From: Escherichia coli
Lineage (GTDB): Bacteria > Pseudomonadota > Gammaproteobacteria > Enterobacterales > Enterobacteriaceae
DNA: 64,000 nucleotides
Strand: one strand, 5' to 3'
Assembly (NCBI RefSeq): GCF_003334815.1
Contig: NZ_QOWO01000003.1
The notes beneath the pieces are model-generated. The model was not told the DNA's origin. It ran no database searches and was given only the letters and a program-made list of their open reading frames with translations. The position numbers were made by a program, and so were the translations under genes. This document shows, one piece after another, positions 17,800 through 17,816 of this stretch (position 1 is the first letter of the stretch; the number at the start of each line of letters is the position of its first letter).

Positions 17800-17816
17800 T
17801 GGCATGATTCTTGTAA
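17800..17816 (+). promoter_or_regulatory. Candidate sigma-54 (-24/-12) promoter of pspG
   Basis: TGGCATGATTCTTGTAA has GG at -24 with the correct 10-bp spacing to a GT (not consensus GC) at -12, about 35 nt upstream of pspG ATG; pspG is a known PspF/sigma-54 target (from memory). Confidence 0.4.

What the first reader, a model, noticed from the sequence alone, without database searches (positions are those of the whole stretch)
17800..17816. Candidate sigma-54 promoter for the isolated pspG gene
pspG lies far from the pspABCDE operon but carries a -24/-12-type element (TGGCATGATTCTTGTAA) about 35 nt upstream of its ATG. The -12 dinucleotide is GT rather than consensus GC, so the call is tentative.
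Basis: partly seen in the sequence, partly recalled or inferred. Interest (0 to 1): 0.25.

Follow-up and report, generated by a model that had tools for sequence, protein, structure and literature searches.

The report
Known sigma-54 promoter of pspG

Summary
The sequence TGGCATGATTCTTGTAA is at 17800-17816, 34 nt before the pspG ATG (17851), in E. coli K-12-type DNA (dusA-pspG-qorA-dnaB). It is the published pspG sigma-54 promoter. Bonocora et al. 2015 list TTGGCATGATTCTTGTA as ChIP-seq site OS40, with a predicted TSS 25 nt before pspG, marked experimentally confirmed in EcoCyc. Salmonella ChIP-chip finds the orthologous site, and pspG promoter DNA forms open complexes with sigma-54 and PspF in vitro.

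My own tests agree. In PWM scans that leave the site out of training, it is the best or second-best match in the 64 kb window. No other + strand site within 550 bp upstream exceeds 5 bits. All 80 species examined, from Escherichia to Yersinia and Brenneria, keep the element.

The non-consensus T at -12 is not a weakness. It is present in 75 of 80 species and is shared with pspA. Upstream lie a consensus IHF site (17783-17795) and one PspF enhancer (17731-17750). A PWM built only from pspG orthologues finds both known pspA enhancers. The dusA terminator hairpin sits inside the enhancer-promoter loop.

Verdict: observation confirmed, interpretation supported, already known, low interest.

The parts
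17731..17750 (+). PspF enhancer (UAS) of pspG, core TAGTCAAATTCACCACGC (17733-17750). It lies about -95 to -76 from the predicted TSS, beginning 14 nt after the dusA stop codon (17715-17717).
   Evidence: This is the most conserved block upstream of the promoter in 79 unique orthologous sequences. It matches the published PspF enhancer TAGTGTAATTCGCTAACT at 11 of 18 positions on both strands, which is not significant alone. A PWM made only from pspG-orthologue blocks picks the two known adjacent pspA UAS sites as the top four hits in the 801-bp pspF-pspA region, and only 6 of 127,962 window positions score as high. The literature reports one UAS at pspG, bound by PspF. The exact borders are inferred.
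17747..17782 (+). Intrinsic terminator of dusA (stem-loop 17747-17772, then a T-rich tail). It lies inside the enhancer-promoter loop and overlaps the right edge of the UAS.
   Evidence: Terminator scan: 10-pair stem, 8 G-C pairs, tail TTTGCTGTTA. RNAalifold on 73 sequences: 10 pairs, 8 with compensatory double changes.
17783..17795 (+). IHF binding site, AATCAATAGATTA, an exact match to WATCAANNNNTTR. It lies about -43 to -31, immediately upstream of the -24 element.
   Evidence: The strict consensus occurs only 6 times in the 64 kb on both strands, and one occurrence is here. The block is conserved at a fixed 16-17 bp before the sigma-54 17-mer in Enterobacteriaceae and at 26-27 bp in Yersinia, Rahnella and Brenneria. 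pspA has the equivalent AATCAAAAAGATA at the same distance. IHF dependence of psp promoters comes from the literature. Binding at this exact site is inferred.
17799..17815 (+). Sigma-54 -24/-12 promoter element TTGGCATGATTCTTGTA (GG 17801-17802 at -25/-24; GT 17813-17814 at -13/-12).
   Evidence: PWM. (ChIP-seq OS40, FAT 15, EcoCyc-confirmed). (Salmonella ChIP-chip orthologous site, enrichment 39). (present in 80 of 80 species). (open-complex and abortive-initiation assays on pspG promoter DNA with sigma-54 and PspF1-275).
17826..17826 (+). Predicted transcription start (G), 12 nt after the T at -12 and 25 nt before the ATG.
   Evidence: Bonocora et al. place the TSS 19 bp after the motif centre. 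The centre is 17807 in the window, giving 17826 and the published distance of 25 nt to pspG. This is a prediction with an uncertainty of 1-2 nt. The primary mapping paper could not be read.
17840..17846 (+). Ribosome-binding site GGGAGAG, 4 nt before the ATG.
   Evidence: Read directly from the sequence.
17851..18093 (+). pspG coding sequence (80 aa inner-membrane effector of the Psp response), stop codon included.
   Evidence: ORF and translation (inside the longer listed frame). RefSeq annotation 'envelope stress response protein PspG'.
18229..18251 (.). Two-way terminator hairpin between the convergent genes pspG and qorA.
   Evidence: The terminator scan reports the same 9-pair stem on both strands, each followed by a T-rich tail. 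Not examined further.

Best explanation
This is the enhancer-dependent sigma-54 promoter of pspG, the second and unlinked transcription unit of the PspF (phage-shock) regulon. RNA polymerase with sigma-54 sits on TTGGCATGATTCTTGTA (17799-17815) as a closed complex that cannot open on its own. The AAA+ activator PspF binds one enhancer at about 17731-17750. IHF bends the DNA at 17783-17795 so that enhancer-bound PspF touches sigma-54, and ATP hydrolysis by PspF opens the promoter. Transcription starts near 17826 and gives a 25-nt leader with a GGGAGAG ribosome-binding site. Without membrane stress, PspA holds PspF inactive. Secretin pIV or loss of proton-motive force releases PspF, and pspG is induced together with pspABCDE. 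Three steps are shown in the literature: sigma-54 occupancy in vivo, in vitro open-complex formation, and PspF dependence. Three are shown here: motif strength, uniqueness in the window, and conservation of all three elements. The exact borders of the UAS and IHF sites and the exact start nucleotide are inferred.
For: The sequence is at the stated coordinates. In leave-one-out PWM scans it is the best or second-best match in the window, and no competing site lies upstream. It is a published ChIP-seq site with identical sequence and matching geometry, marked confirmed in EcoCyc, and pspG is up-regulated when sigma-54 is overexpressed. The orthologous Salmonella site was found by ChIP-chip. PspF binds the pspG UAS, there is one UAS, and induction is about 20-fold. 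The published PspF enhancer consensus is assigned to pspG. pspG promoter DNA supports sigma-54/PspF1-275 open-complex formation and abortive initiation, and shares its -24/-12 elements with pspA. The 17-mer is conserved in 80 of 80 species, with GG in 79 of 80 and GT in 75 of 80. The IHF and UAS blocks are conserved and are displaced by about one or two helical turns in the outgroups. A UAS PWM built only from pspG orthologues recovers both pspA enhancers. There is no sigma-70-like promoter on the + strand, and a covarying dusA terminator lies just upstream.
Against: Nothing substantive. The -12 dinucleotide is GT rather than GC, which costs 5.65 bits in the PWM, but this is the conserved state. 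I could not read the primary paper (Lloyd et al. 2004), so the mapped start site and the footprint borders are taken from secondary sources or inferred. The match of the UAS to the single published 18-mer is not significant alone (134 sites with at least 11 of 18 matches in the window). In the Salmonella microarray, pspG rose only 1.4-fold with a promiscuous activator.
Confidence: 0.97

Rival explanations
1. pspG is expressed mainly from a sigma-70 promoter or by read-through from dusA, and the -24/-12 match is a non-productive sigma-54 binding site of the kind common in E. coli.
For: Most of the 135 sigma-54 ChIP-seq sites are not known to drive transcription. dusA ends only 133 nt upstream on the same strand.
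Against: There is no sigma-70-like -35/-10 on the + strand in 17500-17850. A strong, covarying intrinsic terminator separates dusA from the promoter. pspG is one of only five genes with intergenic sites that rise when sigma-54 is overexpressed. The literature reports PspF-dependent induction.
Confidence: 0.02
2. The element is a chance resemblance to the sigma-54 consensus with no function.
For: The -12 dinucleotide departs from consensus. About 0.4 sites of this score are expected by chance per 64 kb.
Against: It lies exactly where a promoter for pspG is needed. It is conserved in 80 of 80 species while the flanking leader and loop sequences vary. It is flanked by conserved IHF and PspF sites. 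It is bound by sigma-54 in vivo in two species.
Confidence: 0.01

Closest known systems
E. coli pspG promoter (pspGp; yjbO promoter), Lloyd et al. 2004 J Biol Chem 279:55707; site OS40 of Bonocora et al. 2015
   Same: It is the same locus. The 17-mer is identical, the distance to the gene is the same (predicted TSS 25 nt before the ATG), and the neighbours are the same (dusA upstream, qorA downstream).
   Different: Nothing. The window is 100% identical to MG1655 over the 801 bp tested.
E. coli pspA promoter (pspABCDE operon)
   Same: Same sigma factor and activator. Both have TTGGCAY...TTGTA with T at -12. An IHF-type site (TAAATCAA...) starts 19-20 bp before TGGCA in both. The PspF enhancer motif is of the same type.
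   Different: pspA has two adjacent enhancers 20 bp apart (L003 211-230 and 231-250), and pspG has one. The pspA region also carries the divergent pspF promoter. At pspG the loop contains the dusA terminator. Reported induction is about 100-fold for pspA against about 20-fold for pspG.
IHF-assisted sigma-54 promoters in general (e.g. Klebsiella nifH, glnHp2, Pseudomonas Pu)
   Same: The layout is enhancer, then IHF bend, then the -24/-12 element (background).
   Different: The IHF site directly abuts the -24 element (about -43 to -31). The enhancer is close, centred near -85, so the loop is short.

Membership tests
Sigma-54 (-24/-12) promoter | GG and GC doublets exactly 10 bp apart within TGGCAC-N5-TTGCW | tested here: met
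   GG is at 17801-17802 and GT at 17813-17814 with correct spacing. The PWM score is 14.5-16.9 bits, the median of 133 bound sites. The C-to-T departure at -12 is also seen in 4 of 135 bound E. coli sites, including pspA.
Sigma-54 (-24/-12) promoter | Occupied by sigma-54 holoenzyme in vivo | not testable with these tools
   Literature: ChIP-seq FAT 15 in E. coli and ChIP-chip enrichment 39 in Salmonella.
Sigma-54 (-24/-12) promoter | Transcription start about 12 nt after the -12 element, ahead of the gene | not testable with these tools
   Predicted at 17826, 25 nt before the ATG. The primary mapping paper is not held.
Sigma-54 (-24/-12) promoter | Requires an enhancer-binding AAA+ activator; no open complex without it | not testable with these tools
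   Literature: pspG probes form open complexes with sigma-54, PspF1-275 and dATP. pspG belongs to the PspF regulon.
PspF regulon promoter | PspF enhancer of the TAGTGTAATTCGCTAACT type about 75-125 bp before the start | tested here: met
   The block 17731-17750 is conserved in orthologues. A PWM built from those orthologues alone finds both pspA enhancers as the top hits in the pspF-pspA region. Direct identity to the published 18-mer is only 11 of 18.
PspF regulon promoter | IHF site between the enhancer and the -24 element | tested here: met
   An exact WATCAANNNNTTR match at 17783-17795, one of 6 in 64 kb. It is positionally conserved and parallels pspA.
PspF regulon promoter | Induced by secretin pIV or membrane stress, repressed through PspA | not testable with these tools
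   Literature only. My recollection of the Lloyd et al. 2004 abstract agrees.
Sigma-70 promoter (rival) | -35/-10 hexamers with 16-18 bp spacing on the + strand upstream of pspG | tested here: not met
   There is no + strand match in 17500-18300. The two matches found are on the - strand.

The most novel reading that the evidence does not exclude
The T at -12 may be a selected signature of PspF-dependent promoters rather than a tolerated defect. It is kept in 75 of 80 species at pspG and is shared with pspA in E. coli and Salmonella. It is found at only 4 of 135 sigma-54-bound sites in E. coli. It could tune the repressive fork-junction contact of sigma-54 Region I, for instance to set the basal leak or the response to a limiting pool of PspF. 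A related point is that the enhancer and the IHF site move only by about whole helical turns between families, with the dusA terminator kept inside the loop. The identity of the pspA and pspG -12 elements is already noted in print, so only a functional meaning would be new.
Probability: 0.25. Interest if true: 0.3.

Novelty: already known. Interest (0 to 1): 0.05.

Why it matters
It matters little as a discovery. The pspG promoter, its sigma-54 and PspF dependence and the role of IHF were published in 2004 and have been used as a model system since. The result is useful as a calibration point: a reader working from raw sequence correctly recognised a genuine sigma-54 promoter despite a non-consensus -12. 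The comparative data here show that this departure is the conserved, normal state for psp promoters.

Tried and rejected
- **Papers not held:** I tried to read the primary paper (Lloyd et al. 2004, JBC) and Weiner et al. 1995 (NAR) for the mapped start site and footprints. Neither is held. One literature query failed on syntax and one was unfocused.
- **Start site:** No probe sequence or priming dinucleotide for pspG could be recovered from PMC4641871, so the start site remains a prediction.
- **Weak UAS test:** A simple mismatch count of the pspG upstream region against the single published 18-mer enhancer gave 11 of 18. That is no better than 134 other places in the window, so I rejected it as evidence and replaced it with the cross-promoter PWM test.
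- **Rivals rejected:** Sigma-70 promoter, read-through from dusA, and a chance match.

Full report
**Observation.** The window around the finding reads ...agattattttTGGCATGATTCTTGTAAtgccagcaagagatttcatatttgggagagcatcATG.... The ATG of an 80-codon reading frame is at 17851, so 34 nt separate the two. GG (17801-17802) and GT (17813-17814) have the spacing of the sigma-54 consensus TGGCAC-N5-TTGCW. The region is 100% identical to E. coli K-12 MG1655 over 801 bp. It is present in all 5426 complete E. coli genomes, where the genes are annotated dusA, pspG, qorA and dnaB.

**Is it more than chance?** I built a position weight matrix from the 41 other intergenic sense sigma-54 ChIP-seq motifs of Bonocora et al. 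2015 (PMC4591121, Table 1), leaving pspG out. The element scores 16.9 bits and is the best match in the whole 64 kb window on either strand. Markov-1 simulations give about 0.4 sites of that score per 64 kb.

With all 133 published high-stringency sites other than pspA and pspG as training, it scores 14.5 bits, the median of sites bound in vivo. It is then second in the window, behind only the fdhF promoter at 54317-54333 (-), which was in the training set. The next best + strand site between 17300 and 17850 scores 5.0 bits, so that test is passed.

**What the literature already says.**
- Bonocora et al. list TTGGCATGATTCTTGTA as site OS40. It has FAT 15, downstream gene pspG, a predicted start 19 bp after the motif centre and 25 nt before the gene, and the flag 'C' for experimentally confirmed in EcoCyc.
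- In window coordinates the motif centre is 17807, the predicted start is 17826 and the ATG is 17851. This gives the same 25 nt.
- pspG is one of only five genes with intergenic sites that rose when sigma-54 was overexpressed.
- In Salmonella the orthologous site TGGCATGATTTTTGTAAG was found by ChIP-chip with enrichment 39 (PMC3844500).
- PspF binds specifically to the UAS of the pspA and pspG promoters. pspG has one UAS and is induced about 20-fold. pspA has two and is induced about 100-fold (PMC3709507; PMC3041696).
- Synthetic 88-nt pspG promoter probes form heparin-resistant open complexes and support abortive initiation with sigma-54 holoenzyme, PspF1-275 and dATP. [quoted passage not shown]
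- The primary paper, Lloyd et al. 2004, is not in the held library. From memory, its abstract states that yjbO (pspG) expression is driven by sigma-54 RNA polymerase, activated by PspF and IHF, and negatively regulated by PspA. The secondary sources above agree with that.

**Comparative evidence obtained here.** A scan of one genome per species returned 80 pspG loci. They run from Escherichia, Citrobacter, Salmonella, Enterobacter, Klebsiella and Kluyvera out to Yersinia, Rahnella, Biostraticola and Brenneria.
- Every locus has a high-scoring sigma-54 17-mer upstream of pspG.
- GG at -24 is kept in 79 of 80. The -12 dinucleotide is GT in 75, GA in 3, GG in 1 and GC in 1.
- Among the 135 published E. 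coli sigma-54 sites, only 4 have GT at this position, and two of those are pspA and pspG.
This is so even though it costs 5.65 bits in a general sigma-54 matrix.

**The rest of the regulatory region.** A footprint anchored on the 17-mer (79 unique sequences) shows four conserved blocks separated by variable sequence.
- **Sigma-54 element.** TTGGCAYGnTTYTTGTAAT.
- **IHF site.** AATCAATAGATTA at 17783-17795 is an exact match to the IHF core WATCAANNNNTTR. That consensus occurs only 6 times in the 64 kb on both strands. It starts 16-17 bp before the 17-mer in Enterobacteriaceae and 26-27 bp before it in Yersinia, Rahnella and Brenneria. pspA has AATCAAAAAGATA at the equivalent place.
- **Terminator.** A G+C-rich hairpin at 17747-17772 is followed by a T-rich tail and is called terminator-like. 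Its stem covaries: 8 of 10 pairs show compensatory double changes across 73 sequences. This is the dusA intrinsic terminator, sitting inside the enhancer-promoter loop.
- **PspF enhancer.** The block AGTAGTCAAATTCACCACGC lies at 17731-17750, starting 14 nt after the dusA stop codon. The published PspF enhancer is TAGTGTAATTCGCTAACT (PMC4987338, citing Lloyd 2004). Direct identity is 11 of 18 on either strand, which is not significant alone. As an independent test I built a matrix from the 49 unique pspG-orthologue blocks only and scanned the 801-bp pspF-pspA region of E. coli. The four best hits, on both strands, fall on two adjacent sites, L003 211-230 and 231-250. The second is the published enhancer, and the pair corresponds to the two pspA UASs. 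Only 6 of 127,962 window positions score as high as the best of them, and two of those six are the pspG site itself. The same matrix finds only one site at pspG, matching the published 'one UAS'.
- **Spacing.** In Yersinia and Rahnella the enhancer lies about 22 bp further from the promoter, and in Brenneria about 10 bp further. These shifts are roughly whole helical turns.

**Rivals.** No sigma-70-type -35/-10 pair is found on the + strand upstream of pspG. Read-through from dusA has to pass a strong, conserved terminator. A non-productive sigma-54 binding site is unlikely, given the expression and in vitro data cited above. A chance match is excluded by conservation and by ChIP in two species.

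**Mechanism.**
1. Sigma-54 holoenzyme binds 17799-17815 as a closed complex.
2. PspF binds the enhancer near -85.
3. IHF bends the DNA at about -37.
4. PspF hydrolyses ATP and opens the promoter.
5. Transcription starts near 17826 and yields a 25-nt leader with the ribosome-binding site GGGAGAG (17840-17846).
6. PspA blocks PspF until membrane stress releases it.

The binding of sigma-54, the in vitro activation by PspF and the regulon membership are shown in the literature. The strength, uniqueness and conservation of the three DNA elements are shown here. The exact site borders and the exact start nucleotide are inferred.

**Verdict.** This is the known pspG promoter, not a new member or variant. 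Interest is low. The only mildly open point is whether the conserved T at -12 has a specific functional role. Its identity in pspA and pspG is already noted in print.

Noticed in passing
window 54317-54333 (- strand): GTGGCATAAAAGATGCA is identical to the published sigma-54 site OS41 of the fdhF promoter. It is the other top PWM hit in the window (15.8 bits). pspG and fdhF are the only high-stringency ChIP-seq sites listed in this coordinate range.
   Followed up: partly
window 17747-17782 (+ strand): The dusA intrinsic terminator lies between the PspF enhancer and the IHF site of pspG and overlaps the right edge of the enhancer. The stem covaries in 8 of 10 pairs across 73 enterobacterial sequences. 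A terminator is thus kept inside an enhancer-promoter loop.
   Followed up: yes
L078, L079 (Yersinia, Rahnella); L081, L083 (Brenneria), upstream of pspG: Relative to Enterobacteriaceae, the IHF site is about 10 bp further from the sigma-54 element. The enhancer is about 22 bp further in Yersinia and Rahnella and about 10 bp further in Brenneria. These are roughly whole helical turns. Brenneria L081 carries a perfect palindrome, GTTAGTCGTTTTGACTAAC, at the enhancer.
   Followed up: partly
L035 (S. enterica subsp. diarizonae), L017 (subsp. arizonae), L027 (Citrobacter werkmanii): L035 is the only one of 80 species with consensus GC at -12 (TTGGCATGGTTTTTGCT). L035 and L017 have a leader about 33 nt longer (68-69 nt from the site to the ATG). 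L027 has GT instead of GG at -24 (TTGTCATG; 9.7 bits), which may weaken the promoter.
   Followed up: no
window 55408-55424 (-), 11281-11297 (-), 26451-26467 (-), 49117-49133 (+): These further sigma-54-like matches score 13.5-14.0 bits and are not in the high-stringency ChIP-seq tables. They may be chance matches or low-stringency sites.
   Followed up: no
window 18229-18251: A 9-pair hairpin with T-rich tails on both strands lies between the convergent genes pspG and qorA. It is probably a shared two-way terminator.
   Followed up: no
window 17807 versus 54325: The distance between the pspG and fdhF motif centres is 36,518 bp in the window but 36,630 bp by the published U00096.2 coordinates. 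This 112-bp difference suggests an indel relative to MG1655, or a window from a different K-12-like strain.
   Followed up: no
window 15332-16317 (+ strand): Two overlapping ORFs (84 aa and 246 aa) upstream of dusA correspond to a region that RefSeq annotates as a frameshifted DUF2713-domain pseudogene.
   Followed up: no
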